Notes: generated by a model not told the origin, from the sequence alone. DNA of 64,000 nucleotides from a virus (IMGVR_UViG_3300045988_152007:60475-124474), one strand, 5' to 3'; positions 1 through 29,059 are shown, counted from the first letter of the stretch. A program made the numbers and translations.

Positions 1-13
1 ATATAATAATTCA

Positions 14-451
14 TCATTTTACAGGTTCCACCTTACAATAACAAGCATTATAGAAATCTTCTTTGTTATCGTATTCATCACGATGTTCCGGCCACCATTC
101 TACTGTTAATTCTGTTTTCATCCCATGTTCAAATTGTTTTATACTATCAGACCCATTCGCTACAATCCAGGTATTAGATTCGCCATAAGGTGTATAACCA
201 ATTAGTCTAAAACAATCTTCATCTTTCTTGTCGCGTGCTTCATCTGTAATAAGAGTCCTATTATAATAACATTTACTTAATACATCAGCTACATTACGAT
301 ATTCCATATAATGCTCATGATAACAATCGCAAGCTACTTTCATTAACATGCTGCCAGTGATATCATACCTTCGTGCTTCAGATGGAGTGGCCCGCACTTT
401 CTAATAATCGCCTTCTGGCGACCAAAATTCGTATAAATAATCTTTATCCAT
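14..451 (-). CDS. hypothetical early protein, N-terminally extended relative to ORF-track 14..397, with one in-frame TAG
   Basis: ATG at 451-449 is preceded by AGGAGG (aaaggaggataatATG) and is in frame with the 14..397 ORF. Codon 17 is TAG (+ 401-403). Stop is TGA. Confidence 0.45.
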
Positions 452-642
452 ATTATCCTCCTTTGCCCAAAATGGCTTGACATAATTAAAATTTTTTTGT
501 ATAATATATTTAGAAAATAGTTCTATATAAAATTTAATCTTCTAAATGTAAACGTAAATAAATAGCTACTCCTAATAGGATTAGACCCGGAATGAGAAAC
601 CATAGCGGGTCTAATGTAGAATGAATAATTGTCAACATTAAT

Positions 643-1104
643 TTAATGACCAAAATACAACCACCACTTTGCCGTAGACACTTCTGCAAGGGCAAGTCTG
701 CAATTCTTAATGCTCACTAGATAACTATTGTAAATTTCCAACTGTCGTTTAACTAATTCACTACTGGACAATTCAGGATAAATAGATGCGAAAATAACAG
801 CATTTTCAGGAGTCAATGCAGCATAGGTATCTTTTTCGTGGTCAAGATAATTAGCGACTACATCATTAATTGTCACTTGGATGGTTTGCATTTCAGTTTC
901 ATATACTTCAATTTTCTTATTGTATTCAGGCACTTTACTAATTGATAGAGCACAAACAATAATGCCAACAGCTGCAACAAATGCAAGGATACCGCCGATT
1001 GCTACCCAGCCTACGCCTTTTCCTTCATAAGAGCCATATCTTAAATTAAGCATGACACCAACAATAATAAGAATAATGCCAATAACAAGAGCCACAATAG
1101 TCAT
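643..1104 (-). CDS. small membrane protein (N-terminal TM helix)
   Basis: 153-aa ORF with hydrophobic N-terminus MTIVALVIGIILIIVGV. TAA stop. Confidence 0.5.
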   Translation of the reverse strand: MTIVALVIGIILIIVGVMLNLRYGSYEGKGVGWVAIGGILAFVAAVGIIVCALSISKVPEYNKKIEVYETEMQTIQVTINDVVANYLDHEKDTYAALTPENAVIFASIYPELSSSELVKRQLEIYNSYLVSIKNCRLALAEVSTAKWWLYFGH

Positions 1105-1458
1105 TTATTTATCCTCCATAATACAATCACAGACGAATTGATTTACCCATTCCCAGAAATGATAACCATTGAACATAGTAAAATCAAGGTCATCAAATCT
1201 CTTATTGCCAAGCAATTTCTTTTCCTTGTCCCAGATAGTTAGATACACAACAGCATAATTCCCGCTGCCATCTTCATAACTGCCATGAAAAATATCATCA
1301 CAATGAATTATAAATCTGCCCCTCCACAGAGGGTCATCATGCAGATTCTTATTCATCTTCTTGATACGATTAACAACCTTACGTTTCAGATTCTTCTTAC
1401 TATTGGAGCTGTGAGAACTTTCCCAATACTTATCATTCTTCTTCATTACTTCTTCCAC
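1105..1458 (-). CDS. hypothetical protein
   Basis: 117-aa ORF tightly packed with neighbours. TAA stop. Confidence 0.45.
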   Translation of the reverse strand: MEEVMKKNDKYWESSHSSNSKKNLKRKVVNRIKKMNKNLHDDPLWRGRFIIHCDDIFHGSYEDGSGNYAVVYLTIWDKEKKLLGNKRFDDLDFTMFNGYHFWEWVNQFVCDCIMEDK

Positions 1459-1781
1459 TCCTTAATTCTGTACTGATACATACCTTTAGAATAATCTGTC
1501 GGGTCTTTCACTACAATGAAAATTGCATCATAATAAGGCGGATTATCAATAACAGTATAATCAATATCTTTATGATAACCGCATCTATCAAGTGCAATCT
1601 TAACTGTCTGTACCATGCCTTCACGTACAATCCAAATGCTATGAGTATTAGCCAGATTTGCCTGTACCATCATTGCACTATTAGGAATAGACTTCAATGC
1701 TTTATAAATAACTCTACTCGCACAATCCTTTTCGCCAATTACGCCTTCTGCAATCAGTCTCTCTTCATCAGTCTTTACCAT
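1446..1781 (-). CDS. hypothetical protein
   Basis: 111-aa ORF that overlaps its neighbours by a few nt, suggesting translational coupling. Confidence 0.45.
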   Translation of the reverse strand: MVKTDEERLIAEGVIGEKDCASRVIYKALKSIPNSAMMVQANLANTHSIWIVREGMVQTVKIALDRCGYHKDIDYTVIDNPPYYDAIFIVVKDPTDYSKGMYQYRIKEWKK

Positions 1782-2107
1782 TGTTTTACATCCTCCACAT
1801 AAATAAATTCAAGATATTTGTCTACATAAGACATAAATGCCAGCTTACCTTCACCCAAGAGACAAGAGGTTTCATAGAGGAACCACTGTTCTGTTGCTTC
1901 CAGACTTGTTTCATACATTTGCTTTTGGATGTAATAGATAAGTTCATCTGCTACATCTTCTACAACTGCCCGCCGCACTTCTTCAATTTCGGCAAATGTC
2001 TCTTTCCACGTTAGTTTGCGTTCAAGAGCAATGAAATCATAGGTGTCCATAAAATCATAATTGCCTTCATCAAGCGGCAAATGATTAATAACAATTAAGC
2101 CATTCAT
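1775..2107 (-). CDS. hypothetical acidic protein
   Basis: 110-aa ORF. Confidence 0.45.
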   Translation of the reverse strand: MNGLIVINHLPLDEGNYDFMDTYDFIALERKLTWKETFAEIEEVRRAVVEDVADELIYYIQKQMYETSLEATEQWFLYETSCLLGEGKLAFMSYVDKYLEFIYVEDVKQW

Positions 2108-2460
2108 TAATATGCCCTTTCTGCAATATAATTGCTAAAAATCGGCGGATATTCGCCAAACACTTCATTAAACTTTTTTTCCATTTCATGTTCCTTATTT
2201 ACATCAATTTCAAGATGGTTAAGACGATTATAATTGAATGACGAATCAAGGTCAATACTAAAAAGGCGATAACCAAAGAAGACATGGTCCAGCCAATCAT
2301 AGCCATAGCAATCAGAAATTACAAGGTCATCTTCTTGAAGAATTTCAAATGTTTCATTCGGATCAATTTTTGCTCGTTCACAATATTCTTTAAATGAAGG
2401 AACATTACCTTCACCAAACATAAAACCGCGGCCTACAAATACTTCATATTCAACACTCAT
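2107..2460 (-). CDS. hypothetical protein
   Basis: 117-aa ORF. Confidence 0.45.
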   Translation of the reverse strand: MSVEYEVFVGRGFMFGEGNVPSFKEYCERAKIDPNETFEILQEDDLVISDCYGYDWLDHVFFGYRLFSIDLDSSFNYNRLNHLEIDVNKEHEMEKKFNEVFGEYPPIFSNYIAERAY

Positions 2461-2566
2461 GATATATCCTCCTTGACAATTTTTTTATTTCTCATTTCTT
2501 TATATAAATATTTTATAATATTTTTTTATAAAAATAAATAAGGCCGATTGGGATAGCCAACCGACC

Positions 2567-3064
2567 TTATGTAATAGGTTTACAAACTCCAGGAGGAAGT
2601 GTAATAAATGTCTCACTATTCAAGGCATTCCAGAGACAGAGCCACTGACGATAATCATCATATTTTGTATAATTAATTGTTTTTACATTAGGTACTTCGC
2701 CATCGGCACAAGTCTTAATAAATACTGAACTATTATCAAGTTTATATGTCTGATAATAGCCATTATCCAAAAGAACAATAACAGAATTATTACTGCCCCA
2801 TTGAATATAAGTATCTTCTGACATAAGTTTAAGTTCGTGATAGTTTTCTACTTCAATTACTGAATGTTCTTTGCTGTCAGGAATTCCACAATAAACAACA
2901 GCAAATAGTGAACTGATAACGATGGCGGCCATACAAGTACAAACGGCTGCCCATAGAAATTCGGCCTTAAACCACTTCCAAATTTTTGAAAAGCTATAAT
3001 ATTTAATATACTGCTGAATACTATAAACAATGGTAATGGCAGCGGCGATCAAGAAAAAAATCAT
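2567..3064 (-). CDS. membrane protein (multiple TM segments)
   Basis: 165-aa ORF with hydrophobic stretches MIFFLIAAAITIVYSI and AAVCTCMAAIVISSLFAVVY. Confidence 0.5.
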   Translation of the reverse strand: MIFFLIAAAITIVYSIQQYIKYYSFSKIWKWFKAEFLWAAVCTCMAAIVISSLFAVVYCGIPDSKEHSVIEVENYHELKLMSEDTYIQWGSNNSVIVLLDNGYYQTYKLDNSSVFIKTCADGEVPNVKTINYTKYDDYRQWLCLWNALNSETFITLPPGVCKPIT

Positions 3065-3263
3065 TCTTCTACTTTCCCTCCCATAAATTCAATAAAATCG
3101 CGGTTTTCGAGAGCATTAATAGTAAGTTTATACCTTTTTGATAAAGATTCAACCATTGTTAATTCGTACAAATTTTTTTCAATTTTAATGATATACATAA
3201 TAGGAATAATAGCAGTATTAACATGAATAGGATATGGATATCCTTCAGCTTTAATTTTATAAA

Positions 3264-3479
3264 TCATATATTACTCCCACAATTTTTACAATAAATTTTA
3301 TCATCTACGATAAGAACTTGATTATTTTGAAGGATAGTGCCACACCTGGTACAATGCGGTGGGTTAGAGCAGAAGAATTTACAGCCTGGATCTTCATCAT
3401 CGACACGCAAGCCAGAGACGATGCGGCATTGACCTTGAACACGATAGCCGCATCTGCCGCATCGACGCAAATTTACCAC
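3264..3479 (-). CDS. zinc-ribbon protein (Cys-rich)
   Basis: 71 aa with CGRCG...CTRCG...CKNCG motifs. Confidence 0.45.
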   Translation of the reverse strand: MVNLRRCGRCGYRVQGQCRIVSGLRVDDEDPGCKFFCSNPPHCTRCGTILQNNQVLIVDDKIYCKNCGSNI

Positions 3480-3705
3480 AGCACATTCTCCTGAATTGCA
3501 TCAAGTGCTTCGGCACTTACTTCAAGACAATCATCAGGGGCGAATGCTTCAAGCTCTACCTTATTAATGCTATCAAAATACTGGTAAATCTTTTCCATAG
3601 CATCAGTATATCCTTCATCAACGTCATTATCAGAATATACGAGTCCTGTCTCATCTTTTGACTTGTCATCATAATTCCAATTTACTTTATATCTAAAATA
3701 CATAT

Positions 3706-3981
3706 TTAATCCTCCAAACTTGGAATAGCTCTAATGTAGTAATTAATTCCGCCAAAGAAAAGAGCAATACATTTATTACTACACTGATATTTCTTCCACC
3801 AATCACGTAATGTATCTGTATATTCTTCAAGAGTATCGGCATCATCAAGTTTATTAATGCCATAATTATATTCGATAAATGCTTCTTCTTCGGCGATAGA
3901 TAGAACAAGTTCTTCGGCGGAGGCTCGGCTATCGCAGCAGATTAAATCATCACTGCAACTATCCCAAACAACATATTTCAT
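3706..3981 (-). CDS. small early protein, paralog family member (MKYV..C..AEE motif)
   Basis: 91 aa. N-terminus MKYVVWDSCSDDLICCDSRASAEELVLSIAEEEA resembles that of 4278..4553 and 4554..4886. Confidence 0.45.
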   Translation of the reverse strand: MKYVVWDSCSDDLICCDSRASAEELVLSIAEEEAFIEYNYGINKLDDADTLEEYTDTLRDWWKKYQCSNKCIALFFGGINYYIRAIPSLED

Positions 3982-4275
3982 TTAATTAAGCTCACTTTCA
4001 TAAATTCCATTTAAATTATATCCGCCCTTATAAAGTATATAACCTTCAAGAGTTTTGTTATATTTAGAAGCTAATCTTTTCCATTCTGTTAAAACATTTT
4101 CTTCAGTGTAAATAGATATTAGATGATTATATGTATTTAAACTTTCTTGTTCTACGCATGAAAGAACAAATTCTTGTGCGTCATTAAGATTTCTAAAAGA
4201 ATATACTTCATAGTTATTACCATAATTATTAATTTCACCATAATTATTACTATCTATAACTGTATAAATTTTCAT
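3982..4275 (-). CDS. hypothetical protein
   Basis: 97-aa ORF. Confidence 0.4.
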   Translation of the reverse strand: MKIYTVIDSNNYGEINNYGNNYEVYSFRNLNDAQEFVLSCVEQESLNTYNHLISIYTEENVLTEWKRLASKYNKTLEGYILYKGGYNLNGIYESELN

Positions 4276-4277
4276 AA

Positions 4278-4553
4278 TTAATATTCTCCTAATTCTTCAA
4301 TAATAAATCGACCACTCATAAACCAAAGAGCTGTGCCGTAATGAGTTTTGCATTTCATTTCTGGATGTCTTGATTTTCTAAATTCAAAACTGTTATTGAA
4401 GAAATTATCTACACCTTCATACATTGCTTGATAATATACATCTTCTTCAGTTAATGCCAGAATAGCTTCTTCGGCATCTGCACGAGTGTTGCAAATATAT
4501 CGAGGGATTTCACAACAAGCATCATCATCAATTTCAGAAATTAAATATTTCAT
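4278..4553 (-). CDS. small early protein, paralog family member
   Basis: 91 aa. MKYLISEIDDDACCEIPRYICNTRADAEEAILALTEEDVY. Confidence 0.45.
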   Translation of the reverse strand: MKYLISEIDDDACCEIPRYICNTRADAEEAILALTEEDVYYQAMYEGVDNFFNNSFEFRKSRHPEMKCKTHYGTALWFMSGRFIIEELGEY

Positions 4554-4886
4554 TTAGTACTCCTCTCCAATAGAATAGTTATAATATTCACCAGCCATAA
4601 GAAGAGTCCAACCATAGAAAGAAATATCTTTATCGTCAAATGGAAATCTAAATTTATTATACTCTTTCCAGTCAAGAACTTTATCATTGAGATAAACTTC
4701 CATAGGATTTTCACCAGGTTTTACTGTAATTTCTGTTTCATTATAATAATAATCATCAAGGAATGCCCTATATGCTTCTTCTTCGGCGGCGGCAAGAATC
4801 AGTTCCTGCACATCAGCTTCAGTATTACAGATACCAAGAATACCAGGATAGAAGTTATCAAAATAATCATAAGCAACATACTTCAT
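4554..4886 (-). CDS. small early protein, paralog family member
   Basis: 110 aa. MKYVAYDYFDNFYPGILGICNTEADVQELILAAAEEEAY. Confidence 0.45.
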   Translation of the reverse strand: MKYVAYDYFDNFYPGILGICNTEADVQELILAAAEEEAYRAFLDDYYYNETEITVKPGENPMEVYLNDKVLDWKEYNKFRFPFDDKDISFYGWTLLMAGEYYNYSIGEEY

Positions 4887-4973
4887 AATTTATTTTCTCC
4901 CTCATTTTTATATATATATTTTAACAAATTTTTTTATAAAAATAAAAGAGCCAGATTTACTCTGGCTCTTTGA

Positions 4974-5273
4974 TTATCTATTTACTTCTTCAACGATTAC
5001 AATAGCATTATGAATTACGACACGATTACCATTATAATCAAAGAATGTTTCATTTTCTGATTCACTAATATCAATCATTGCCGGACCATATTCCCGCAAG
5101 AGATTACCATTGTAATCATAGACAGACACAATACGATAAAGACCGCCAGTGTAATTACTTCTCCAACTCTTTAAGGTACGCTGGAAATTCGCACCACTGA
5201 ATGTAAAAATCAACATACCAATTACAAGAGCCACAACAATAATAACAATCAGGACGCTACTTCTACTTCTCAT
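4974..5273 (-). CDS. membrane-anchored protein
   Basis: 99 aa with N-terminal TM VLIVIIVVALVIGMLIFTF. GGAG RBS upstream. Confidence 0.45.
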   Translation of the reverse strand: MRSRSSVLIVIIVVALVIGMLIFTFSGANFQRTLKSWRSNYTGGLYRIVSVYDYNGNLLREYGPAMIDISESENETFFDYNGNRVVIHNAIVIVEEVNR

Positions 5274-5284
5274 ATTATTTCTCC

Positions 5285-5574
5285 TTATAAATCGTTTGTT
5301 TTACAGAATAAATACATTACGAATGCAATGATTACAAAACCAAAAATAAATATTTTAATCATTGTACAAACTGCCAAGAGCATAAAAGGTAAGACAAATA
5401 AAAATGGTTAAGAAAAATAGTTCCATTAATCAGTAGCCCTCGCTAATACAATTCCAATAACTACACCAATTAAGGTACATAATACTATTACAATCATTAT
5501 ATTTCACTCCCTAATGCTGCTCCAACTAAAACGGCAAATATACAGAGGATAAAAACTCCTATAATTAAATCCAT
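5285..5574 (-). other. cluster of four tandem, overlapping micro-ORFs encoding 23-26 aa hydrophobic peptides
   Basis: Minus-strand reading gives MDLIIGVFILCIFAVLVGAALGSEI, MIVIVLCTLIGVVIGIVLARATD, MELFFLTIFICLTFYALGSLYND and MIKIFIFGFVIIAFVMYLFCKTNDL. Each start overlaps the preceding stop as TAATG or ATGATTAA. Confidence 0.3.
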
Positions 5575-6944
5575 TAATTATCCTCCAAAGTCATTTCTTC
5601 TTCAATTTCTTCCATGTCAGGCACTTCTGCATCAACCTTAATCAGGTTCTCAAGCACTTTAAAATTATAAGATTTATCTTTTGCAACATCGAAACGAGTG
5701 CCGTTCATCTTACGAATAACTACGCCCTCAATAACATGAGAAGAATCAATCGTAGAAGGAATATCCTCATATTTAGCAATTCGTGCTAGAAAATCCTCTT
5801 TAGTGGTGTAAATAAAACGTTCAAGTTCAGGCACAGTTTCAAAACCCATCTGTTCAGCACGTTGCTTAACAAGGTCCCAAGGATATTCAATTACTACTCC
5901 TTCTGGAGTGGTATAAGTCATACGATAAACAAAATAGCGATTAAGATGCTTATTGTCACCAGTAGGAGAACAACCATAAGAGAAGGTAGTGGTCTTACCA
6001 TATTGTTTGATAAATGCTTTATCTTTAGTTTTAGTGTTATCACCCGGCGTCATAATAGGTGCGTTAGGAGCATAGAATCCTGCAATTTCACCGAAGCATT
6101 CCTCATTGGGCAGAAGCTTACCCTTGAAACGTTCGCCCCAAGCTCTACGGAAATCATCATTACCATAGAAACCGCCAACACTATTATTGGTAAGAACAGT
6201 GCGGCGAGTGCCAATTAGATAACGCATTTCAGTTTTAGGAGTAAGGTGGGACTGTGCAGACATACGCCATTTCTTCGGTAACCAATTGCTGTGTGCAATA
6301 AGTTTAGTAAGGAAGAAACCGTTTTCACCAATAATTGCAGTTTGATATGCGTTTCGAGAGCTGGTACCATGAACTTTCTCGGTCAGGCAAATGATATCAC
6401 CCGGTTTAAACATATCCATATTAAAACGAAGCTGCGGAGTATCAATATGTTCTGCGAAGAACGGGTACTTAATGCGGCATTTCTTTGCAGACTTACGGTC
6501 GCGTTCGCCGCGTGCAGTAGGTTGTGAAGCTCTGGGCTTATGCATCGGCACGTACTTCTCGGCAATCACATGACCATTAAAGGTAGATACAATATCACCT
6601 TCAGCTAGATTGCTAATGTCGCCAAAAGAAGCAAGACAAGTAAGCGGAAGTACCAGGCCTTCAGACTTATTGCCGCGTAGACGAATTGCACCAATATTAC
6701 GCTTCACAGGGTCAATGAAACCACCAGCCGGATTACCATTTTCATCCTGGCGGCGGAAGAGATCATTTGCCTTACCAAACTCTTCGCTAATCTGACCATC
6801 CGTAGGAAAATAGACGTAAAGGTCATTTTCATTCACGGATTTATCAACAATGGTAGTAATACCAAATACTTCACAGGTATTCAGACGGTCAGCATTTTCC
6901 GCAGGTCTAATGTTTTTTACTTTACAAATATATACATTATACAT
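5574..6944 (-). CDS. ATP-dependent RNA ligase, Rnl2-like nucleotidyltransferase with N-terminal extension
   Basis: 456 aa. Motif I KVHGTS (KxHGxN-type), motif III FGEIAG, motif IV EGVVIRK, motif V AKDK. Confidence 0.55.
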   Translation of the reverse strand: MYNVYICKVKNIRPAENADRLNTCEVFGITTIVDKSVNENDLYVYFPTDGQISEEFGKANDLFRRQDENGNPAGGFIDPVKRNIGAIRLRGNKSEGLVLPLTCLASFGDISNLAEGDIVSTFNGHVIAEKYVPMHKPRASQPTARGERDRKSAKKCRIKYPFFAEHIDTPQLRFNMDMFKPGDIICLTEKVHGTSSRNAYQTAIIGENGFFLTKLIAHSNWLPKKWRMSAQSHLTPKTEMRYLIGTRRTVLTNNSVGGFYGNDDFRRAWGERFKGKLLPNEECFGEIAGFYAPNAPIMTPGDNTKTKDKAFIKQYGKTTTFSYGCSPTGDNKHLNRYFVYRMTYTTPEGVVIEYPWDLVKQRAEQMGFETVPELERFIYTTKEDFLARIAKYEDIPSTIDSSHVIEGVVIRKMNGTRFDVAKDKSYNFKVLENLIKVDAEVPDMEEIEEEMTLEDN

Positions 6945-6976
6945 TTATGTCTTTTCCTTTCTTAATTTTAGTTAGT

Positions 6977-7129
6977 TTTCTACTGGAGTAAAGAAGTTGA
7001 GGCTTTCGGTTAGCCATCTATTTGCTTCGGGATCAAAGTAAAGGACACGGAAATATCCGCTATCGTCTCGGAAAATTTGTGCGATCGTATAAGTCTTACC
7101 GGAGACATTGTTTTTCATTTTCATAATTA
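6977..7129 (-). CDS. small hypothetical protein (50 aa)
   Basis: MKMKNNVSGKTYTIAQIFRDDSGYFRVLYFDPEANRWLTESLNFFTPVEN, overlapping the start of the upstream gene. Confidence 0.3.
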
Positions 7130-21881: not shown

Positions 21882-21905
21882 TTCATTTTCCCCCTATGGG
21901 CTGGA

Positions 21906-22379: not shown

Positions 22380-22412
22380 TTTATCATTTCCTTTCTCTTT
22401 TGGAGTATCTTT

Positions 22413-22441
22413 ATTATATCAGATACAAGCGGATTTGTCAA
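22413..22441 (-). promoter_or_regulatory. sigma-A-type promoter TTGACA-17-TATAAT
   Basis: TTGACAaatccgcttgtatctgaTATAAT. Confidence 0.5.
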
Positions 22442-22450
22442 GTGTTTTTT

Positions 22451-22843
22451 TCAAACTAATTTGATATTTTTATAGTTTTCAATAGCCCAAGCACTTGCGA
22501 ATGGCATAATTGACATATCTTTTACACCATTATTTACACTGATTTGGATATTTTTCCCATGGGCATAAGCATACCCGATTTCCCAAGCTGTTCCAGAATC
22601 AGAGTATAGACCATCATATACAGCAAATAGAATATCACATTCTTGAATTGCGGCAACATCCATTTTGAAAACTTCCCTTGCCCAATCTTCCTGCGACATA
22701 TCCCAAGCATTCGGGACAGTATGTTCTTGCGGAACAAATACATCATACCCAAGCCGCCGGAAACCTGCCGCATATGAATCAATTCTTGATTTTGTCTCAG
22801 GGCGGAAGAACGCTCCAGCCATGTAAATTTTCATTTTTATCAT
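22451..22843 (-). CDS. nucleoside 2-deoxyribosyltransferase (NDT)-like protein
   Basis: KIYMAGAFFRPE ... DSGTAWEIGYAYAHGK matches the NDT family. Start moved to ATG 22843 (AAAGGAAAGGAA-ATG), 22 nt downstream of the promoter -10. Confidence 0.6.
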   Translation of the reverse strand: MIKMKIYMAGAFFRPETKSRIDSYAAGFRRLGYDVFVPQEHTVPNAWDMSQEDWAREVFKMDVAAIQECDILFAVYDGLYSDSGTAWEIGYAYAHGKNIQISVNNGVKDMSIMPFASAWAIENYKNIKLV

Positions 22844-22864
22844 TTCCTTTCCTTTTGTATCCTT

Positions 22865-22893
22865 ATTATAGCACAGGGCATACCAGAAGTCAA
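22865..22893 (-). promoter_or_regulatory. sigma-A-type promoter TTGACT-17-TATAAT
   Basis: TTGACTtctggtatgccctgtgcTATAAT. Confidence 0.5.
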
Positions 22894-23001
22894 GCATAAA
22901 ATATTCGTCAAATTACACAAACATTTTGGGAAAATTTTCCAAGGGCTGGGCTGGAAGGATTTGGAAAACTTTTTTACGTTAGCACTTTAACTCGCGAAAT
23001 T

Positions 23002-23028
23002 CCAGCCGCGGCGTTGGATCGCGGCTGG
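23002..23028 (-). terminator. rho-independent terminator (same hairpin family)
   Basis: ccagccgcggcgttggatcgcggctgg. Confidence 0.5.
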
Positions 23029-23211
23029 CTCAAATTCCCCTTCCAAATTATGGGATTGCCAAATTTGCCGCATTTGATTTTTTGACTGGAAAATTATAGA
23101 ATTGAAACAGAAATAAAAATTATTTTTTTTATATAAAAATTATATTATTTTTTTTTATAATTTTCAAAATAGAATTTCCTCCCAAGATATGGGAGGAAAT
23201 TCAAATGGAAA

Positions 23212-23424
23212 TTAGAATTTATCATGCGGAATTTCGGGATAGTCAAGAATTTTTGCAACAAATTCATCGTACTTATCCACCAGCATACAATCTTTTCCAC
23301 AGTGTTTTTGAATATAATGTTCAGCTTCCGAACGACACGAAGCTTCTACAAAAAACAATCGCGGCCAGTCTTTTGTAGGGAGGAAGTTAATTACCAGATA
23401 CTTCCAGGTTTTATATCCTTCCAT
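23212..23424 (-). CDS. hypothetical protein
   Basis: 70-aa ORF. Confidence 0.4.
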   Translation of the reverse strand: MEGYKTWKYLVINFLPTKDWPRLFFVEASCRSEAEHYIQKHCGKDCMLVDKYDEFVAKILDYPEIPHDKF

Positions 23425-23430
23425 TTTTTA

Positions 23431-23658
23431 TCACTCCTTAACATATAATGTAGCATCTACGGCGTAGACTTTTGTATCCTCAGCAAAACAATCAAGTTCT
23501 CCAGTAGATAAATCAATCGAATTGATTTCATCACCGTCATTATCTACGCATTCAGTTTTTATATAAACTGTATCATAGGATGGACATTTGAATACAGTTC
23601 CAATATCCAGAGCTGCGAAGTGGATAACCTGTCTGGGCTTTTCATACTCGATTTTCAT
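23431..23658 (-). CDS. hypothetical protein
   Basis: 75-aa ORF. Confidence 0.4.
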   Translation of the reverse strand: MKIEYEKPRQVIHFAALDIGTVFKCPSYDTVYIKTECVDNDGDEINSIDLSTGELDCFAEDTKVYAVDATLYVKE

Positions 23659-23660
23659 TT

Positions 23661-23984
23661 TTATTTTTCCTTTCTATGTTTGATTAGCTTTTTCGCCATG
23701 TTCTTTTGAATTGCGTCATATACTACTTTCGGCATTTTCATCTGCCCGTTTCGTCTGAAAATTGCAGTTGCTTTGTCCATGTTGACATAATACAAAGTGA
23801 TTAGAAATTCCATCCGGCTATCTGTAATCAAAATCACTCCCGTGCTTGTAATAATCTGCCATTTGTCCTCATATTTGAATTTTGCCACAGGTTCGCCAAG
23901 TCCGGTGTTCATTTGAATTTCAACATATCTGTCCAAGCGGTCTTCCTTGAAATGTTTACTGACTTGCAATTTTGTAATATCCAT
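23661..23984 (-). CDS. hypothetical protein
   Basis: 107 aa. RBS AAGGAGGAAATTAAG-ATG, preceded by a GC stem-loop. Confidence 0.4.
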   Translation of the reverse strand: MDITKLQVSKHFKEDRLDRYVEIQMNTGLGEPVAKFKYEDKWQIITSTGVILITDSRMEFLITLYYVNMDKATAIFRRNGQMKMPKVVYDAIQKNMAKKLIKHRKEK

Positions 23985-24005
23985 CTTAATTTCCTCCTTT
24001 TGGAA

Positions 24006-24023
24006 GAGGGCTTTTTAGCCCTC
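24006..24023 (-). repeat. conserved GC stem-loop GAGGGCTTTTtAGCCCTC immediately 5' of an RBS
   Basis: Related copies at 25585..25604 and 26337..26358. Each sits just upstream of CCAATAGAAAGGA / AAGGAGG and an ATG. Confidence 0.4.
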
Positions 24024-24224
24024 GTTCCTATCATCTTCAATCCAACGGTTCAGAAACTGTTCGCAAGATTCATCCGGATTATCATTAACCGCTTTCTCAC
24101 AAGCCTTTTGGAAAGGACAGGCTTCACAAGAAGGAAGGTGTTTAATAAGTTCAATCAGCATATCCTTATCAAGGACGTTATTTACAAATTCAGACATTTT
24201 CATTTTCATTTCCCCCTTAATCAA
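24015..24224 (-). CDS. hypothetical Cys-containing protein
   Basis: 69-aa ORF. Confidence 0.4.
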   Translation of the reverse strand: MIKGEMKMKMSEFVNNVLDKDMLIELIKHLPSCEACPFQKACEKAVNDNPDESCEQFLNRWIEDDRNEG

Positions 24225-24357
24225 TATAAGTAGACATTAGACAAACCCATTCACGGCTGTTATACTTCGGGCTTCTCTCCCTAGCGTCTGCTAGGGAGTA
24301 GCCATATGCAGTTTCAATTTTTTTTGTGTTGACATTGTACATCTCGAACTCATACAT
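24217..24357 (-). CDS. small hypothetical protein (46 aa)
   Basis: ATG after GAGGAGGG. MYEFEMYNVNTKK... Confidence 0.35.
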   Translation of the reverse strand: MYEFEMYNVNTKKIETAYGYSLADARERSPKYNSREWVCLMSTYID

Positions 24358-24361
24358 GATG

Positions 24362-24544
24362 TTAGCCCTCCTCATCCTCGATGCAACCGCAGACTGTGTA
24401 CCACAGACCCATATACTCGTCATAATTGCGGGCATATGTGTTGCAGAAATCGTTCATAGATTCAGCACTAAAATCATGGTCATTATCAATCCATTCGTTC
24501 AGCAGTTCAGCGATTTTTTCAGTAGTCATTTTTTGTATCTCCAT
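24362..24544 (-). CDS. small hypothetical protein (about 60 aa)
   Basis: MEIQKMTTEKIAELLNEW... The ORF-track N-terminus overlaps the promoter -10 and was trimmed. Confidence 0.35.
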   Translation of the reverse strand: MEIQKMTTEKIAELLNEWIDNDHDFSAESMNDFCNTYARNYDEYMGLWYTVCGCIEDEEG

Positions 24545-24918
24545 TTCATTTTTATCTGTTCCCTTGGAACAATTATATATTACCACACCCTATAGCAAAT
24601 GTCAATAGGAAAGTCAAATTTTTTTATTCGTCAATATGCACAAAGATTCTGGAAATATTTGGTATGGAATTATATACCATAAGCTGGTAGGATATGGGAA
24701 ATGGAATGTAATGTCAAATATGGTAGAATTTGGCTGGAAATATTCGGAATTGATATTAAATGGAAAATGCGGGGCGTGGCGAGCTTGCTGTGGATATATC
24801 AATTTCGCCACGCCCCGGCGAGGCAATTTATTTAATTAAAGTGATAATGAATTAAAGAAGATGATTTGAAAAATGGGCTGGAAACTGTTTCCAATTTCCA
24901 GCCCTTGGAATTTCAGGA

Positions 24919-25236
24919 TCAAACTGCCATATGAGCCAGATTCTGCCATTCATAAATCTTATTTACGCCCATTTCATTTGCAATTTCTCTTGCCTGCCGT
25001 CTGGTGTAGGCGTGTTCAGTGGTGCTGACGTAATATTTTCCATTTTTGAATTGAATACTGCAATTTCCAATCATTCGGTTCAGGGTTCTGGCAATTTCCA
25101 TTGCCTTTTCGGGCTGTTCGCATTCATATGTTGCGATATTCACCTGAAAACCGCCCTTGTACTTTTTGATTTTTCCGTTCTTGATGTTCAGGGTATCGCC
25201 ATCCTGCATTTTCCGAATAGTTCTCACGTTAATCAT
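24919..25236 (-). CDS. small protein, paralog pair member
   Basis: MINVRTIRKMQDGDTLNIKNGKIKKYKGGFQV resembles the N-terminus of 25259..25576. Confidence 0.45.
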   Translation of the reverse strand: MINVRTIRKMQDGDTLNIKNGKIKKYKGGFQVNIATYECEQPEKAMEIARTLNRMIGNCSIQFKNGKYYVSTTEHAYTRRQAREIANEMGVNKIYEWQNLAHMAV

Positions 25237-25258
25237 TTTTTATTTCTCCTCTCAAATA

Positions 25259-25576
25259 TTAAATGTAAAGGCAGGCAGGATTTCCACGCCATCTGTAAAT
25301 TGAAAGCTGATTACATTTCCTGCCAATTTCAACTGCCTCGCGTTTTGTGGACACTCGTTTAGAAATGTCAATGTAGTATCTGCCATTTTCAAGCCAAATG
25401 CCGCATGTGCCTTTGAACTCTCGAACCGCCTGTATTGCCATTTCAGGACTGATGACCTCGACGCCATTAGTAGCTACCTGATAGCCACTCTTGTACCTCT
25501 TGATTTTTCCATTTTTAAGTGTTAGGCCATCGCCGTCAGCCAGTTTCTTGATTGTGCGAATGTTAATCATATCAGA
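25259..25576 (-). CDS. small protein, paralog pair member
   Basis: MINIRTIKKLADGDGLTLKNGKIKRYKSGYQV. The ORF-track N-terminal extension was trimmed to the MINIR start, which has an upstream RBS. Confidence 0.45.
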   Translation of the reverse strand, partial: SDMINIRTIKKLADGDGLTLKNGKIKRYKSGYQVATNGVEVISPEMAIQAVREFKGTCGIWLENGRYYIDISKRVSTKREAVEIGRKCNQLSIYRWRGNPACLYI

Positions 25577-25604
25577 TATTTCCTTTCTATTGGTGGAGGG
25601 CTTT

Positions 25605-25790
25605 TCAGCCCTCCGGTTTATTTTCTTCGTACAGCAGCTCGCCGCGGCTGTATCTCTGGTAGTGGATCTCAAGTAAATCCAAATGGTATTCATAGTAGTC
25701 GGCGTCAATAGGGTCATCGAACGCCTCCTCTATAATCTCCTGAGTATGGTCATTGAACATTTTAATGACTTCGCTATGTTGATTTTTCAT
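25605..25790 (-). CDS. hypothetical acidic protein
   Basis: 61-aa ORF. Confidence 0.4.
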   Translation of the reverse strand: MKNQHSEVIKMFNDHTQEIIEEAFDDPIDADYYEYHLDLLEIHYQRYSRGELLYEENKPEG

Positions 25791-26012
25791 TTTAATCCTC
25801 CATCATCACGAAGAAATTCCAACTACTGTATTCAGGTCTGCCGCCAGCAGGATTATTATGGCGGACCACCTGACAAAATGAAACAGAAATCCAGAGCATA
25901 ATAATTATGCCAGATAATGTTAACGCGAGTTTGAGATTTTTCATTTTGAAATTTTCCTTTCGACTTTTGGATTCATGTGCTCGGTTGAATTGTCAGAAAG
26001 CGGTAGAGGGAC

Positions 26013-26312
26013 TCAAATGTCCCTCACCACTAACGTCAGGTGGTCGGCTGTATGCTCGATTGCCTGTATAATCTGATAGCTTGTGAAATGGTAGGTAGTT
26101 AGCAGACCAGAAGTAAATACCGCAGACCGACTGCCAAACCCTACGATTTCCAGTTCCTGCATGATGTAGAGCTTTTCTTCAAGTTCGCGGTAGAAGGCAG
26201 GCTGCCAAGGGCAGTTGAATGTGCTGGATAATTGCCATTTGCAATAATCAGTTTGAACATTGTTCTTATCAAGAAAACGGATCTCGGCATAGGGATTTCG
26301 TGCAGTTGCCAT
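26013..26312 (-). CDS. hypothetical protein
   Basis: 99 aa. Preceded by a GC stem-loop and CCAATAGAAAGGA RBS. Confidence 0.4.
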   Translation of the reverse strand: MATARNPYAEIRFLDKNNVQTDYCKWQLSSTFNCPWQPAFYRELEEKLYIMQELEIVGFGSRSAVFTSGLLTTYHFTSYQIIQAIEHTADHLTLVVRDI

Positions 26313-26346
26313 ATTGTACCATCCTTTCTATTGGAAGCCAAGGGTT

Positions 26347-26568
26347 TTAACCCTTGGCTCTGTAGGTTTCTTTGCCTTTCTCGAATGTGCTCATGACTTC
26401 ACCAGTCTGCATATCAATGACATCTCTGTCATTCTTTGCCCATATGCTGTAAGCGTGAGCCATACAACGTGCTGCGGTCAGGTTATGGTAGATGGTGCTA
26501 TACTGGCCAGTTGTGTGATTATAGATAGAATACATAATGTTATCCCCTTTCTGTGGTTGGTTGGGCAA
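26347..26568 (-). CDS. hypothetical protein
   Basis: 73-aa ORF. Confidence 0.4.
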   Translation of the reverse strand: MPNQPQKGDNIMYSIYNHTTGQYSTIYHNLTAARCMAHAYSIWAKNDRDVIDMQTGEVMSTFEKGKETYRAKG

Positions 26569-26904
26569 TTAGCCCAACCAAATTTGCTTACTTGTTGCGA
26601 TAGACCAGCGACGCCGACTTGCTGCCAGCCGCTCGACTTCCCACTTGACCCATTCAGAGCAACCGCCTTCGTCCATATCAGCGAAAATATGCTCTACTTC
26701 TTTATGGTCGCTCTTCATAGAGTATTCGGTATAGCTTGCTTCGGCGATCTGCTCAGCGATATAGTCTTTCTGGCCCATCAGCTTATGAAAGGTGGCCTTG
26801 CCATTAGGGTCAGAGAAATTGACCTTGCCCATGGCATTGTTAATGCGGATGATGGTGTTCTGCATAGCTTCCTTACGGATAGCTCTTCTATTGGTTCTGG
26901 TCAT
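26569..26904 (-). CDS. hypothetical protein
   Basis: 111-aa ORF. Confidence 0.4.
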   Translation of the reverse strand: MTRTNRRAIRKEAMQNTIIRINNAMGKVNFSDPNGKATFHKLMGQKDYIAEQIAEASYTEYSMKSDHKEVEHIFADMDEGGCSEWVKWEVERLAASRRRWSIATSKQIWLG

Positions 26905-26960
26905 AATAATTATACCTCCATATATTGTCAGTTGGTTGGTTGGTGGATGGGTGAAGAAGC

Positions 26961-27365
26961 TTATGCTTCTTCACCGTATAGTAAGTCGTGCAGTTTGTAG
27001 AAGAAGTCCTCAAGCATATGCTCGAAGATATCCGCCCATTCTTCGGCCTCGTCTTGTAAGTCTGTTAGTTTTTCATACGCGGCCTCATATGCGACACATG
27101 GGTTGCCGGCTTCCATATCCATATTATAGTCGGTATGTTCCAAGTCATACTCAGCACTATGAATAGCCCATGTAAGATTATCCCATTGCTGAATATTCTT
27201 CGCCGCATACTCATGATACTTGTCCAGCATACCATCATAGTCGAAGCTATTGCCTTGCATATGGTACTGTTTGACATACTTCACGATATCGTCAGCTTGT
27301 TCTGCTAATTCCTCTTTGATTGCTTTCTGTTTGTCCTGTTCACTAGTTTTAATTGCATATACCAT
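26961..27365 (-). CDS. highly acidic protein (D/E-rich)
   Basis: 134 aa with long acidic stretches. First gene behind the 27626-27654 promoter and a long leader. Confidence 0.45.
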   Translation of the reverse strand: MVYAIKTSEQDKQKAIKEELAEQADDIVKYVKQYHMQGNSFDYDGMLDKYHEYAAKNIQQWDNLTWAIHSAEYDLEHTDYNMDMEAGNPCVAYEAAYEKLTDLQDEAEEWADIFEHMLEDFFYKLHDLLYGEEA

Positions 27366-27618
27366 GATTTTACCAATCCTTTACATATTATTTGACTGTT
27401 AGTTGTCACCTATCCGTGTTACTATCTGCCGTAGGCGTTGGATTGCCCTACCGCTTGCACCGCACTTTCCATGTTCTACCATCGCGTCCGCTATGCGGTG
27501 CAGACGCTCGGCTTAGATTCACTTTTCAAGGTTCAACGCCGTTCGGTGCTTCGGCCTCTTTCCGGTCATTCTACTACATTTGCAAGGGCTTGCGTTGTTT
27601 GTGTTCCCTTGCTTTCGT
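27366..27618 (-). ncRNA. long GC-rich structured 5' leader or ncRNA candidate
   Basis: No credible ORF on either strand. Nested inverted repeats include gcaccgca/tgcggtgc and gccgtagg/cctaccgc. Lies between promoter TTGACA-17-TACAAT (27654..27626) and the gene start at 27365. Confidence 0.25.
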
Positions 27619-27625
27619 TGTACTC

Positions 27626-27654
27626 ATTGTACCATAGGACTTCCGACTTGTCAA
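27626..27654 (-). promoter_or_regulatory. promoter TTGACA-17-TACAAT driving the structured leader
   Basis: tgtcaa at 27649-54 and attgta at 27626-31 on the + strand. Confidence 0.4.
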
Positions 27655-27817
27655 GGACTTTTTTCAAAATTTCTTGAATTTTTTTCGCTTGGCGTTTTGC
27701 CTTGCTTGCGTTGTCCCGTGGTCAATTTCTGATTATAGAATAGCACCTATGCACGGAATTGTCAAGTATTTTTTTTCAAAAATCGAAATATTTTTTTTGG
27801 GGGTTAGTCGTATCTAA

Positions 27818-27877
27818 CTCACTTCACTCAAGTAAAGTAAGACAATAGACTTTAACACTTTAGTCAAGTGAAGTGGG
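27818..27877. repeat. long imperfect hairpin flanked by G-runs
   Basis: ctcacttcactcaagtaaagt ... actttagtcaagtgaagtg, flanked by ggggg and ggggggg. Confidence 0.4.
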
Positions 27878-27942
27878 GGGGCAGTGTTTCGTGAAAAACT
27901 TTTTCAATTTAATGTAATAAAGTCTTTCCTGGCAAAATAATT

Positions 27943-28040
27943 TCTAAACTCAATTTCAATTTCAAAAAACGGGACAATAATCTAAACTCATTTTCAATTT
28001 CGGAAAACGATAATCATTTCAATTTTGGAAAACAATTTTT
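27943..28040. repeat. three tandem direct repeats of about 30 bp (TCTAAACTCAtTTTCAATTTCggAAAACG)
   Basis: tctaaactcaatttcaatttcaaaaaacg / tctaaactcattttcaatttcggaaaacg / atcatttcaattttggaaaac. Confidence 0.45.
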
Positions 28041-28053
28041 ATAAAAAAAAATA

Positions 28054-28075
28054 AGCGGGAAAATATTTTCCCGCT
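28054..28075 (-). terminator. terminator of the leftward early operon
   Basis: agcgggaaaatattttcccgct, with a T9 run on the minus strand. Confidence 0.5.
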
Positions 28076-28108
28076 TTAATTTTATTCCTTAATTACTCGA
28101 TACCCATT

Positions 28109-28309
28109 CTATTCTAACGTTTCTTTTGCAAGAGCTACGGCATCACTGGCTTCAGGACATTCAATACATAAAAAAGTTTTACCATCTACTTCGTCAATAT
28201 AAAATTCATAATTATGACCATTTACCATATGCAATTCTTCACGAAGTTTAGAGGGAATCATTAAACGTCCAACTGTATCGAGTTTTCTTGTATAAGCTGT
28301 TTTCAGCAT
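28109..28309 (-). CDS. AbrB/MazE-type swapped-hairpin DNA-binding protein
   Basis: 66 aa. RKLDTVGRLMIPSKLREEL. Confidence 0.5.
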   Translation of the reverse strand: MLKTAYTRKLDTVGRLMIPSKLREELHMVNGHNYEFYIDEVDGKTFLCIECPEASDAVALAKETLE

Positions 28310-28427
28310 TCAACTCACTCCTTTCTTTTTAATTGGGAGAGTGCGAGCCATCCCAGAAATTTCATAACTTATTTTATAAAATTTTTTGTGTTTTGTCAAA
28401 ATTTTCTTAACGAAATCTTAACATAAA

Positions 28428-28865
28428 TTAATCAAAAGGAATAATGCCTTCATTAGGGTCAATTACTCCTCGCTCTTGATGGAACCGATAATTAGTATAT
28501 CCATTTTTAAACTTATAAACTTCTACTTCAGGTATAATATATTGGTCTTCCTTATCTACAATTTTAGAACCAAGAGTAATACCGATTGGATCACCTTCTT
28601 CTTCATATTTAGATAAATCAATAGACATTAAATCTTTTTTATTTTTAATGACATGGACTATTCCAGGTCCAATATATTTTTCTTCTAGCCCTTTATTATA
28701 TTCAATATATTTTTTATCGCTTTTAAAATTCATAAAATCTTCAAGGGCTTTAGTATAGTCTTTATAGATTTTTGCTTCAATAATTTTACCATAAATAAAT
28801 CTGGCCGCACATCCTAAACCAAATGCCGCCCCAGTACCTAAAAGAAGCCCATGGACAAACTTCAT
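28428..28865 (-). CDS. putative lipoprotein (signal peptide with lipobox-like LGC)
   Basis: MKFVHGLLLGTGAAFGLGCAARF. 145 aa. Second gene of the leftward early operon. Confidence 0.5.
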   Translation of the reverse strand: MKFVHGLLLGTGAAFGLGCAARFIYGKIIEAKIYKDYTKALEDFMNFKSDKKYIEYNKGLEEKYIGPGIVHVIKNKKDLMSIDLSKYEEEGDPIGITLGSKIVDKEDQYIIPEVEVYKFKNGYTNYRFHQERGVIDPNEGIIPFD

Positions 28866-28905
28866 TAAATCACTTCCTTCAATTTTTAAATATAATATAT
28901 TTACT

Positions 28906-29059
28906 TTTTCTTACGTTCTTTAACAGGATTATAGGCTCCCTGCTGTTTAGGGTTTTCGCCCCACATAAGTTGATAAATAGCTCTAGTCGCACTATTAGTT
29001 GCTCTACGTTTAGCTTTAGAAGCCATACTACCTAAAATCCCACGAGGTTTTCTCATAAA
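28906..29059 (-). CDS. small basic protein (51 aa)
   Basis: MRKPRGILGSMASKAKRRATNSATRAIYQLMWGENPKQQGAYNPVKERKKK. RBS AAGGAGA. First gene after the leftward promoter. Confidence 0.35.

What the first reader, a model, noticed from the sequence alone, without database searches (positions are those of the whole stretch)
14..29059. TAG is nearly purged from early genes but still present: TAG seems to be sense genome-wide, with strongly stratified usage
About 60 minus-strand early ORFs are intact under the standard code, so they contain no TAG. A few exceptions carry TAG in frame with good translation signals. Gene 14..451 has AGGAGG-ATG and a TAG at codon 17, in frame with the rest of the ORF. The micro-ORF at about 8236..8442 overlaps the TGA of the upstream gene as ATGA and has TAG at codon 6. 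The HNH gene has three. So the code change probably applies to the whole genome, while early genes avoid TAG. That pattern is consistent with early genes having to be translated before enough suppressor tRNA has accumulated.
Basis: partly seen in the sequence, partly recalled or inferred. Interest (0 to 1): 0.6.

Follow-up and report, generated by a model that had tools for sequence, protein, structure and literature searches.

The report
Amber-to-glutamine phage with graded TAG use
This is about a third of a ~188-kb gut phage that reads the stop codon TAG as glutamine: its host-promoter-driven early genes almost completely avoid TAG, while late and selfish genes use it heavily, which is a pattern already described for recoded phages.

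Summary
In 61 minus-strand early genes (7,088 codons), at most 7 TAGs lie in frame. Three are genuine sense codons, one is a stop, and three lie upstream of the real starts. The 22 late plus-strand genes (11,379 codons) hold 250 TAGs, 45% of all Gln codons (Fisher p = 3e-31).

TAG means Gln. In 22 standard-code relatives, Q is the majority residue opposite 37 of 69 window TAGs.

- In the gene 14..451 family, codon 3 is TAG in some alleles and CAA (Gln) in one.
- Just left of the window, on the identical source contig, MetK has TAG at its invariant Gln.

- The HNH gene has 4 TAGs, not 3, and is a mobile insertion.
- An AbrB-like early gene (28082..28309) also carries a sense TAG.
- A plus-strand island at 9122..10940 inside the "early" span holds 20 TAGs.
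- Early gene 12745..13107 ends at TAG where relatives have TAA, followed directly by a terminator hairpin.

The timing explanation matches the published model (Borges et al.) but remains inferred. No suppressor tRNA was found for this genome; more distant relatives carry a Gln-type tRNA(CUA). This is a new member of a known kind. One modest new point is that early-arm TAGs are single and mostly near the 5' end.

The parts
14..451 (-). Early-arm gene (145 aa, no known family) with a single sense TAG at codon 17 (401..403).
   Evidence: SD AGGAGG plus ATG. The N-terminus is conserved in 17 contigs: TAG at codon 3 in 11, TAG at codon 17 in 5, neither in 1 (L007, where codon 3 is CAA), and never both.
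8233..8442 (-). 69-aa early-arm gene, translationally coupled to the upstream gene (ATGA), with a sense TAG at codon 6 (8425..8427).
   Evidence: The TAG is kept in 8 loci. Orthologues in L003/L008 (ACA) and L005 (GTT) are open from the same start.
28082..28309 (-). AbrB/MraZ-like, promoter-proximal early gene with TAG at codon 67 of 75 (28109..28111), followed by a terminator.
   Evidence: Pfam MraZ, 2.4e-5. The TAG is conserved in L010/L011/L012/L051. Standard-code relatives have Glu there and continue. Of 5 changes after the TAG, 4 are synonymous. Promoter TTGACA-17-TATAAA at about 28399.
12745..13107 (-). 120-aa early gene whose stop codon is TAG (12745..12747). Reading TAG as sense would add 40 non-conserved residues, down to 12622.
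   Evidence: Orthologues in L007/L008/L009 end with TAA at the same codon. The terminator-like hairpin 12745..12720 plus a T-run starts at the G of TAG.
11899..12519 (-). Free-standing HNH homing endonuclease (HNH_3 + NUMOD4) with 4 sense TAGs, which are 4 of its 8 Gln codons.
   Evidence: PHROG 59, 1.9e-24. Pfam. Absent from L007/L008/L009, which have about 38 nt where the window has about 807 nt. TAG positions.
9122..10940 (+). Variable plus-strand island inside the early arm. It holds an RHH gene (9122..9274, 0 TAG), 9281..9463 (1 TAG), DUF6291 (9470..9991, 9 of 9 Gln codons are TAG) and a GIY-YIG endonuclease (10290..10940, 10 of 10 Gln codons are TAG).
   Evidence: The content differs among relatives (38-62% aa identity or replaced).
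13200..29056 (-). Immediate-early block of small ORFs driven by host-type promoters. It is essentially TAG-free and prefers CAG over CAA.
   Evidence: 12 sigma-70 consensus sites scoring at least 11 of 12 on the minus strand between 13.6 and 29.1 kb. Gene map and codon counts.
29169..64000 (+). Late arm (terminase, portal, capsid, tail, 3107-aa tape-measure-like protein). It can be read only with TAG as sense; 250 TAGs make up 45% of Gln codons.
   Evidence: Abundant virion proteins (37025..39622 and 42956..44041) use TAG for only 3 of 41 Gln codons.

Best explanation
The window is about one third of a ~188-kb tailed phage from the human gut. It is 100% identical, over the 11.1 kb compared, to ENA ERZ28573108 scaffold_57. 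The closest described phage is phAss-1, and the host is probably a Bacillota species.

The phage uses genetic code 15, in which UAG is decoded as glutamine by suppression in a host whose own code is standard.

TAG use follows the expression programme.
- The roughly 50-kb early module is transcribed from host sigma-70-type promoters and must be translated while host RF1 still terminates at UAG. Selection keeps it almost TAG-free.
- Once the phage's suppression machinery is active, UAG is read as Gln. That machinery is presumably a Gln-type tRNA(CUA), as found in the tRNA arrays of relatives.
- Late structural genes use TAG for about half of their Gln codons. The most abundant virion proteins use it less.
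- Homing endonucleases and an accessory island use TAG for 50-100% of their Gln codons.

The few TAGs in early-arm genes are genuine Gln codons, so the reassignment is genome-wide. Each such gene has one TAG. It is usually the first Gln codon near the 5' end, which would delay that gene's translation until suppression is on. In one case it lies near the 3' end, which would give short and long isoforms.

Shown here: the recoding, the Gln identity, the stratification and the coding status of the early TAGs. Inferred: the timing, the RF1 competition and the suppressor of this particular genome.
For: Recoding. ORFs of at least 150 aa cover 17.8k aa with TAG as sense against 6.4k aa under the standard code. 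Terminase, portal and capsid are recovered only when TAG is read through.

Gln identity.
- Opposite 69 window TAGs, 22 standard-code relatives have Q as the majority residue at 37 sites; next are E at 6 and K at 6.
- MetK TAG21 aligns with the Q of GHPDKIADQISDA in PDB MetK chains.
- Codon 3 of the gene 14..451 family is TAG in some alleles and CAA in another.

Stratification.
- Early genes: at most 7 TAGs among 192 Gln codons. Late genes: 250 of 555. Fisher p = 2.8e-31.
- Abundant virion proteins 3 of 41 against the rest 247 of 514, p = 9e-8.
- DUF6291 9 of 9, GIY-YIG 10 of 10, HNH 4 of 8.

Early status. 13 consensus promoters lie on the early strand.

Gradient. In close relatives TAG stays at 0-1 per gene for about 21 kb beyond the window's left end. 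It then rises 3-5 kb before a tRNA array on the same strand, and CAG preference flips to CAA at the same place.

Suppressor. A Gln-like tRNA(CUA), with U1 and a G discriminator in all six sequences read, sits in the arrays of 7 recoded clade members and in phAss-1.

Published model.
Against: No tRNA(CUA), release factor or aminoacyl-tRNA synthetase was found in any of the following:
- the window;
- 39 related loci;
- about 45 kb of flanking sequence from the closest relatives, including their apparently complete tRNA arrays.
About 80 kb of the genome was not seen.

One early gene ends in TAG. This fits time-dependent decoding but shows that TAG is not purely 'sense'.

MetK and gene 14..451 sit in the early arm, yet without suppression they would be cut off after 20 and 16 residues. 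Either they are not truly early or suppression starts very early.

The 'early' and 'late' labels rest on promoters, gene content and orientation, not on expression data.
Confidence: 0.8

Rival explanations
1. Two clean code blocks. The early arm uses the standard code, with TAG as stop, and only the late arm uses code 15. On this view the early 'in-frame TAGs' are annotation artefacts: the true starts lie downstream, the ORFs end at the TAG, or the genes are decaying.
For: 54 of 61 early genes are TAG-free. Gene 12745..13107 does stop at TAG. Three apparent N-terminal TAGs are indeed upstream of the real starts. Block-wise dual coding has been described for crAss-like phages (Mgcod preprint 10.1101/2022.06.29.495998).
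Against: The protein sequence upstream of the TAG in gene 14..451 is conserved at 75-95% identity from the same SD-ATG, and codon 3 alternates between TAG and CAA. After the micro-ORF's TAG there is no canonical start for 37 codons, and its orthologues are open. The tail after the AbrB TAG evolves synonymously. MetK would lose its whole catalytic body.
Confidence: 0.06
2. The stratification is not about timing. It reflects translation efficiency or expression level, because UAG suppression is slow and leaky and any gene needing high output avoids TAG. Alternatively it reflects module ancestry: an early module of different composition, possibly exchanged with standard-code phages, has not accumulated TAG.
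For: Within the late arm the most abundant virion proteins also avoid TAG (3 of 41 against 247 of 514). The early module has higher G+C (0.38-0.43 against 0.27-0.33) and the opposite CAG/CAA preference. The clade mixes standard-code and recoded members.
Against: The depletion in early genes is about 30-fold or more when only the three genuine sense TAGs are counted. It spans about 60 small genes that are unlikely all to be highly expressed. The only early-arm gene shared with standard-code relatives in the fetched loci (AbrB-like) is highly divergent from them, so it was not recently exchanged. TAG-rich homing endonucleases sit inside the same module. The two ideas are not exclusive with timing.
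Confidence: 0.14

Closest known systems
Alternatively coded (code 15, TAG to Gln) gut phages described by Borges et al. (bioRxiv 10.1101/2021.08.26.457843; crAss-like, Garnet, Amethyst, Topaz and others). The same recoding is described by Yutin et al. 2021 (PMC7886860) and validated by Peters et al. 2022 (PMC9523058).
   Same: TAG is read as Gln in a standard-code host. Structural and late genes are recoded while early genes stay compatible with the standard code. TAG is rare as a stop. Close standard-code relatives exist. A homing endonuclease inside an early region is heavily recoded, as reported for a TGA-recoded Agate phage.
   Different: This is a different lineage: a ~188-kb phage whose capsid resembles those of phAss-1 and Enterococcus phages. 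The suppressor tRNA of this genome was not located. Here a handful of early-arm genes carry exactly one TAG, mostly as their first Gln codon, and one early gene still stops at TAG. I did not find these details in the sections read.
Phage phAss-1 (OQ749652) and the proposed Phassvirus group (Babkin et al. 2023, PMC10607447).
   Same: It is the closest annotated record: capsid protein 49% identical over 89% of its length. It comes from the human gut and has a large genome. TAG is read as Gln in 28% of its ORFs. A tRNA array carrying tRNA-Sup(CTA) lies on the strand opposite the structural genes.
   Different: The relationship is distant, with no nucleotide-level match. The genomes are 136 kb and about 188 kb. 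The paper does not analyse early versus late stratification; the word 'early' does not occur in it.
Block-wise multiple-code genomes as modelled by Mgcod (bioRxiv 10.1101/2022.06.29.495998).
   Same: A long contiguous block is compatible with the standard code and lies next to blocks that require TAG as sense.
   Different: The 'standard' block contains conserved sense TAGs and TAG-saturated inserted genes. One code with graded usage therefore describes it better than two codes do.
Programmed stop-codon readthrough that produces C-terminally extended isoforms, for example the Q-beta A1 protein (from my own knowledge, not tested here).
   Same: The AbrB-like gene (66 aa short form, 75 aa long form) and gene 12745..13107 (120 and 160 aa) would each give a short and a long product, depending on how efficiently UAG is decoded.
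   Different: Here readthrough would result from a genome-wide reassignment that switches on during infection, not from a local readthrough signal. The 40-aa extension of 12745..13107 is not conserved.

Membership tests
Code 15 (TAG to Gln) alternatively coded phage | Conserved essential genes are interrupted by in-frame TAG and become full-length when TAG is read through. | tested here: met
   Terminase (11 TAGs), portal (10) and a 3107-aa tail protein (108) are recovered only with TAG as sense.
Code 15 (TAG to Gln) alternatively coded phage | TAG positions align with Gln in homologues that use the standard code. | tested here: met
   Q is the majority residue at 37 of 69 sites in 22 standard-code relatives. 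MetK TAG21 aligns with an invariant Gln.
Code 15 (TAG to Gln) alternatively coded phage | The phage encodes a suppressor tRNA(CUA). This feature is common but not universal; Borges et al. report suppressor tRNAs in 35-40% of alternatively coded phages. | tested here: inconclusive
   None found in the window, in 39 loci, or in the closest relatives' arrays and flanks. It is present in 7 more distant recoded clade members. About 80 kb of this genome was not seen.
Code 15 (TAG to Gln) alternatively coded phage | Recoded codons are concentrated in late, structural and lysis genes, while early genes remain compatible with the standard code. | tested here: met
   22 TAGs per 1000 codons in late genes against 1 or fewer in early genes, p = 3e-31; host-type promoters on the early arm. 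No lysis genes lie in the window.
Code 15 (TAG to Gln) alternatively coded phage | TAG is rarely or never used as a genuine stop codon. | tested here: met
   One gene of 82 (12745..13107) ends in TAG. Standard-code relatives use TAG for 23 of 326 stops.
Code 15 (TAG to Gln) alternatively coded phage | Gln is actually inserted at UAG, as shown by proteomics. | not testable with these tools
   This needs LC-MS/MS of infected cells or virions, as Peters et al. 2022 did for crAss-like phages.
Phassvirus genus (phAss-1 group) | Nucleotide identity and synteny at genus level. Members of the proposed genus share 80-86% nucleotide identity. | tested here: not met
   No megablast match to any phage record. 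The capsid protein is only 49% identical. This is a distant relative at most.
Free-standing homing endonuclease (HNH, 11899..12519) | An HNH nuclease domain with a NUMOD DNA-binding motif. | tested here: met
   Pfam HNH_3 2.6e-9 and NUMOD4 2.4e-5. PHROG 59, 1.9e-24.
Free-standing homing endonuclease (HNH, 11899..12519) | Presence/absence polymorphism at an otherwise collinear site in close relatives. | tested here: met
   L007/L008/L009 have about 38 nt between blocks that are about 807 nt apart in the window.
Block-wise dual-code genome (Mgcod type) | Each block is internally consistent with a single code. | tested here: not met
   Conserved sense TAGs (14..451, 8233..8442, 28082..28309) and TAG-saturated genes (9470..10940, 11899..12519) lie inside the TAG-poor block.

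The most novel reading that the evidence does not exclude
The rare TAGs in early-arm genes may not be leftovers. They may be selected translational gates.

A single UAG, placed as the first Gln codon within the first ~20 codons (gene 14..451, micro-ORF 8233..8442, MetK), would keep an early-transcribed gene silent until suppression switches on. This would define a 'delayed-early' class set by the code rather than by promoters. A UAG near the 3' end (AbrB-like regulator) would switch the protein from a short to a long isoform as infection proceeds.

Support:
- In 17 contigs the gene 14..451 family has TAG at codon 3 (11 contigs) or at codon 17 (5 contigs), never both, and only one allele has none.
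- At codon 17 the other alleles have Arg or Lys rather than Gln, which suggests that the gate was re-created after it was lost at codon 3.
- In all four TAG-bearing early-arm genes of this genome the TAG is the first Gln codon (joint chance about 1/96).
- TAG positions in late genes are uniform.
Probability: 0.3. Interest if true: 0.6.

Novelty: new member of a known kind. Interest (0 to 1): 0.35.

Why it matters
It adds a well-resolved example of code-15 recoding from a large, little-studied clade of gut phages. At least 80 related contigs were found, and recoded and standard-code members have capsid proteins 71-99% identical to the window's.

The example shows three things:
- The reassignment is one genome-wide code with graded usage, not two block codes. 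This matters for annotation: the early arm should also be called with table 15, with care at TAG-terminated genes.
- Selfish endonucleases embedded in early regions are the most TAG-dependent genes.
- A few early-arm genes, including a SAM synthetase, carry a single TAG near the 5' end.

If that last feature is a deliberate timer, stop-codon reassignment would work as a gene-by-gene post-transcriptional clock. This could be tested with reporters and time-resolved proteomics.

Tried and rejected
- Megablast of 16 kb of the late arm and 25 kb of the early arm against 50,697 phage records gave no match.
- ORF 21485..21721 (TAG at codon 6) was rejected as an overlapping wrong-frame ORF. Genes 21301..21633 and 21669..21881 have the orthologues.
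- The TAGs at the 5' ends of ORFs 17820..18170, 24362..24598 and 25259..25753 were rejected as coding. They lie in promoters or leaders upstream of starts with better SD sequences.
- I tested whether TAG stops are specifically depleted in early genes. The window has 1 of 61 and standard-code relatives 23 of 326, which is not discriminating.
- Suppressor tRNA hunt. ARAGORN was run on the window and on more than 60 loci, Rfam tRNA was run on 4 loci, and a custom CUA-anticodon scan was run with a positive control. I walked about 45 kb leftwards through relatives. A suppressor appeared only in more distant clade members.
That result is void. The RHH assignment rests, and the true sequence is.
- Odd intron-like tRNAs in relatives were considered as hidden suppressors. 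No splice choice for the 146-nt tRNA yields a CUA anticodon.

Full report
**What the window is.** It contains no tRNA genes and has two divergent arms that meet at about 29.1 kb. The left arm has negative GC skew and the right arm positive.

Under the standard code, ORFs of at least 150 aa sum to 6.4k aa. With TAG as sense they sum to 17.8k aa, and the plus strand from 29.2 to 64 kb becomes a gap-free series of large genes. PHROG profiles identify these as terminase, portal, capsid and tail proteins.

The first 11.1 kb of the window is 100% identical to ENA ERZ28573108 scaffold_57, which is 188,411 nt long. The gene calls stored for that contig already treat TAG as sense.

No phage record matches at nucleotide level. 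By capsid protein, the closest annotated phage is phAss-1, a published code-15 phage, at 49% identity. Enterococcus phages follow at 41% (PMC10607447).

**Meaning of TAG.** A capsid-based scan returned 80 related loci. Most need TAG as sense, but 22 use the standard code.

Opposite 69 TAGs in window late genes, these standard-code relatives have Gln as the majority residue at 37 sites. Glu and Lys follow with 6 sites each. So TAG means Gln, as in other code-15 phages.

**Checking the observation.** I delimited ORFs by TAA and TGA only, so that absence of TAG is not built in. This gives 61 minus-strand genes (7,088 codons) between 14 and 29056, with at most 7 in-frame TAGs. The 22 late genes (11,379 codons) hold 250 TAGs, 45% of their Gln codons (Fisher p = 2.8e-31). 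Positional base composition predicts about 101 TAGs in the early set.

The seven early TAGs break down as follows:
- Three lie in promoters or leaders upstream of better starts.
- One is a stop codon.
- Three are genuine sense codons.

**Gene 14..451.** In 17 distinct contigs the ORF opens at the same SD-ATG, and the peptide DYLYEFWSPEGDY is conserved.
- Eleven alleles have TAG at codon 3.
- Five alleles, including the window, have TAG at codon 17, where the others have AGG, AGA or AAG.
- One allele (L007) has CAA at codon 3 and no TAG.
- One allele (L111) has a Gln codon at codon 3 and TAG at codon 17.
- No allele has both TAGs.

The TAG/CAA alternation at codon 3 directly marks that TAG as a Gln codon within the family.

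**Micro-ORF 8233..8442.** The ATGA overlap, the GGAGG and the TAG at codon 6 are confirmed. Eight loci keep the TAG. Orthologues at 36-54% identity have ACA or GTT there and are open from the same start. No canonical start follows the TAG for 37 codons.

The AbrB/MraZ-like gene 28082..28309 lies directly behind a consensus promoter. It has TAG at codon 67 of 75 and a terminator follows. The TAG is conserved in four relatives, and standard-code relatives have Glu there and continue. In the eight codons after the TAG, four of five substitutions are synonymous, so the tail is translated.

**Just outside the window.** On the identical contig, 0.5 kb to the left, the SAM synthetase gene has one TAG, at codon 21. 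It aligns with the Gln of GHPDKIADQISDA in solved MetK structures and is kept in all related contigs examined.

**Complications.**
- Gene 12745..13107 ends in TAG exactly where three orthologues have TAA. A hairpin plus T-run starts at the G of that TAG. The 40-codon readthrough frame is closed in the relatives. Here TAG serves as a terminator, which fits an early period when UAG still stops translation.
- The HNH gene has four TAGs, not three. It is an insertion absent from three close relatives, which marks it as a homing endonuclease.
- The 'early' span holds a variable plus-strand island at 9122..10940 with 20 TAGs. In its DUF6291 gene and its GIY-YIG endonuclease, every Gln codon is TAG (9 of 9 and 10 of 10).
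- Further endonuclease-like genes in the flank and inside relatives' tRNA arrays are also TAG-rich.

Borges et al. already reported a preferentially recoded homing endonuclease inside an early gene. They proposed that its recoding delays expression.

**Why 'early' is a fair label.** Thirteen sigma-70 consensus promoters scoring at least 11 of 12 lie on the minus strand between 2.2 and 29.1 kb, and twelve of them lie between 13.6 and 29.1 kb. Only one other lies on the minus strand elsewhere, and four lie on the plus strand.

Walking leftwards through close relatives, TAG stays at 0-1 per gene for about 21 kb. It then rises to 30-40% of Gln codons 3-5 kb before a tRNA array on the same strand and stays high afterwards. 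Preference flips from CAG to CAA at the same point.

Within the late arm, the most abundant virion proteins avoid TAG (3 of 41 against 247 of 514 Gln codons, p = 9e-8).

**Mechanism.** The best reading is the published one. Early genes are translated under the host's standard code. The phage then supplies suppression, and TAG-containing genes become translatable.

I could not find the suppressor of this genome. There is no tRNA(CUA) in the window, in about 45 kb of flanks, or in the arrays of the closest relatives. Seven more distant recoded clade members carry a tRNA(CUA) in the equivalent array; all six sequences read have U1 and a G discriminator, as in tRNA-Gln. phAss-1 carries one too. 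About 80 kb of the genome remains unseen.

**What may be new.** The early-arm TAGs occur once per gene. In all four TAG-bearing genes of this genome the TAG is the first Gln codon, and in three it falls within the first 21 codons. Late-gene TAGs are uniformly placed (12.4% in the first 12% of the gene, KS p = 0.37).

The mutually exclusive TAG3 and TAG17 alleles suggest that a 5'-proximal TAG is maintained in gene 14..451. This would make it a translational gate. The sample is small and the thresholds were chosen after seeing the data, so I give this a probability of about 0.3.

**Verdict.** The phenomenon belongs to a known kind.

Noticed in passing
window 27390..27900 (-): A G+C-rich stretch (0.43) without convincing ORFs lies downstream of two near-consensus promoters. 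The 341-nt segment 27390..27730 folds better than all 100 shuffles (z = -3.05), and no Rfam family matches. It may be an early non-coding RNA.
   Followed up: partly
window 37025..39622 and 42956..44041 (+): The capsid gene and neighbouring abundant virion genes use TAG for only 3 of 41 Gln codons and prefer CAG. Other late genes use TAG for 48% of Gln codons (p = 9e-8). TAG usage is therefore also graded within the late arm.
   Followed up: yes
window 1..29056 compared with 29169..64000: Gln codon preference flips between modules. Early genes have CAG 109 and CAA 76. Late genes have CAG 50, CAA 255 and TAG 250. This would be consistent with late TAGs having arisen from CAG by C-to-T change. 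Gln content including TAG is 4.9% in late genes and 2.7% in early genes.
   Followed up: partly
L102 12454..12599, L104 16165..16310, L101 16175..16320, L103 16734..16879 (relatives, start of the tRNA array): A conserved 146-nt tRNA gene carries a 76-nt insertion in the anticodon loop, and the insertion contains a T-arm-like hairpin. It is too short for a group I intron. The mature anticodon could be UAU (Ile) or CCA, depending on the splice site.
   Followed up: partly
L103 19739..19868 and L104 17556..17644: A tRNA-Gln(UUG)-like gene is interrupted just after the anticodon by an insertion of about 59 nt. The insertion carries its own T-arm, a 3' acceptor strand and a CCA.
   Followed up: no
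L104 19905..19990, L102 18158..18245, L113 9062..9147: An 86-88-nt tRNA has anticodon CCA (Trp) but a long variable arm, like class II tRNAs (Ser, Leu). It sits 6 nt after tRNA-Ser(GCU). Other oddities are a tRNA-like gene with anticodon AAA, conserved in five relatives, and one with a UUUAA loop (possibly anticodon UUA) at L104 18980..19050.
   Followed up: no
L090 11560..13040 (0.5-1.9 kb left of the window, same genome): The early arm continues with a SAM synthetase (MetK), a T7 Gp5.9-like gene (Pfam PF25708) and an AAA_33 kinase. These may be early host-takeover or anti-defence functions.
   Followed up: partly
L101 and L105, about 18671..19501: An HNH endonuclease with 6 TAGs lies between tRNA genes in two relatives. 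In L090, 18090..18998 encodes a zinc-finger protein with an endonuclease-like C-terminus (DUF2726-like, similar to window 33363..33719) and 5 TAGs. In this clade, selfish nucleases are consistently TAG-rich wherever they sit.
   Followed up: partly
window 7127..7402 (-): The stored Pfam annotation gives a chorismate mutase (CM_2) hit for this 91-aa early gene.
   Followed up: no
L016-L032, L078-L080, L082, L083: Clade members with capsid proteins 74-82% identical to the window's use the standard code. Recoding has therefore been gained or lost within a narrow phylogenetic range, which makes this a good system for studying the transition.
   Followed up: partly
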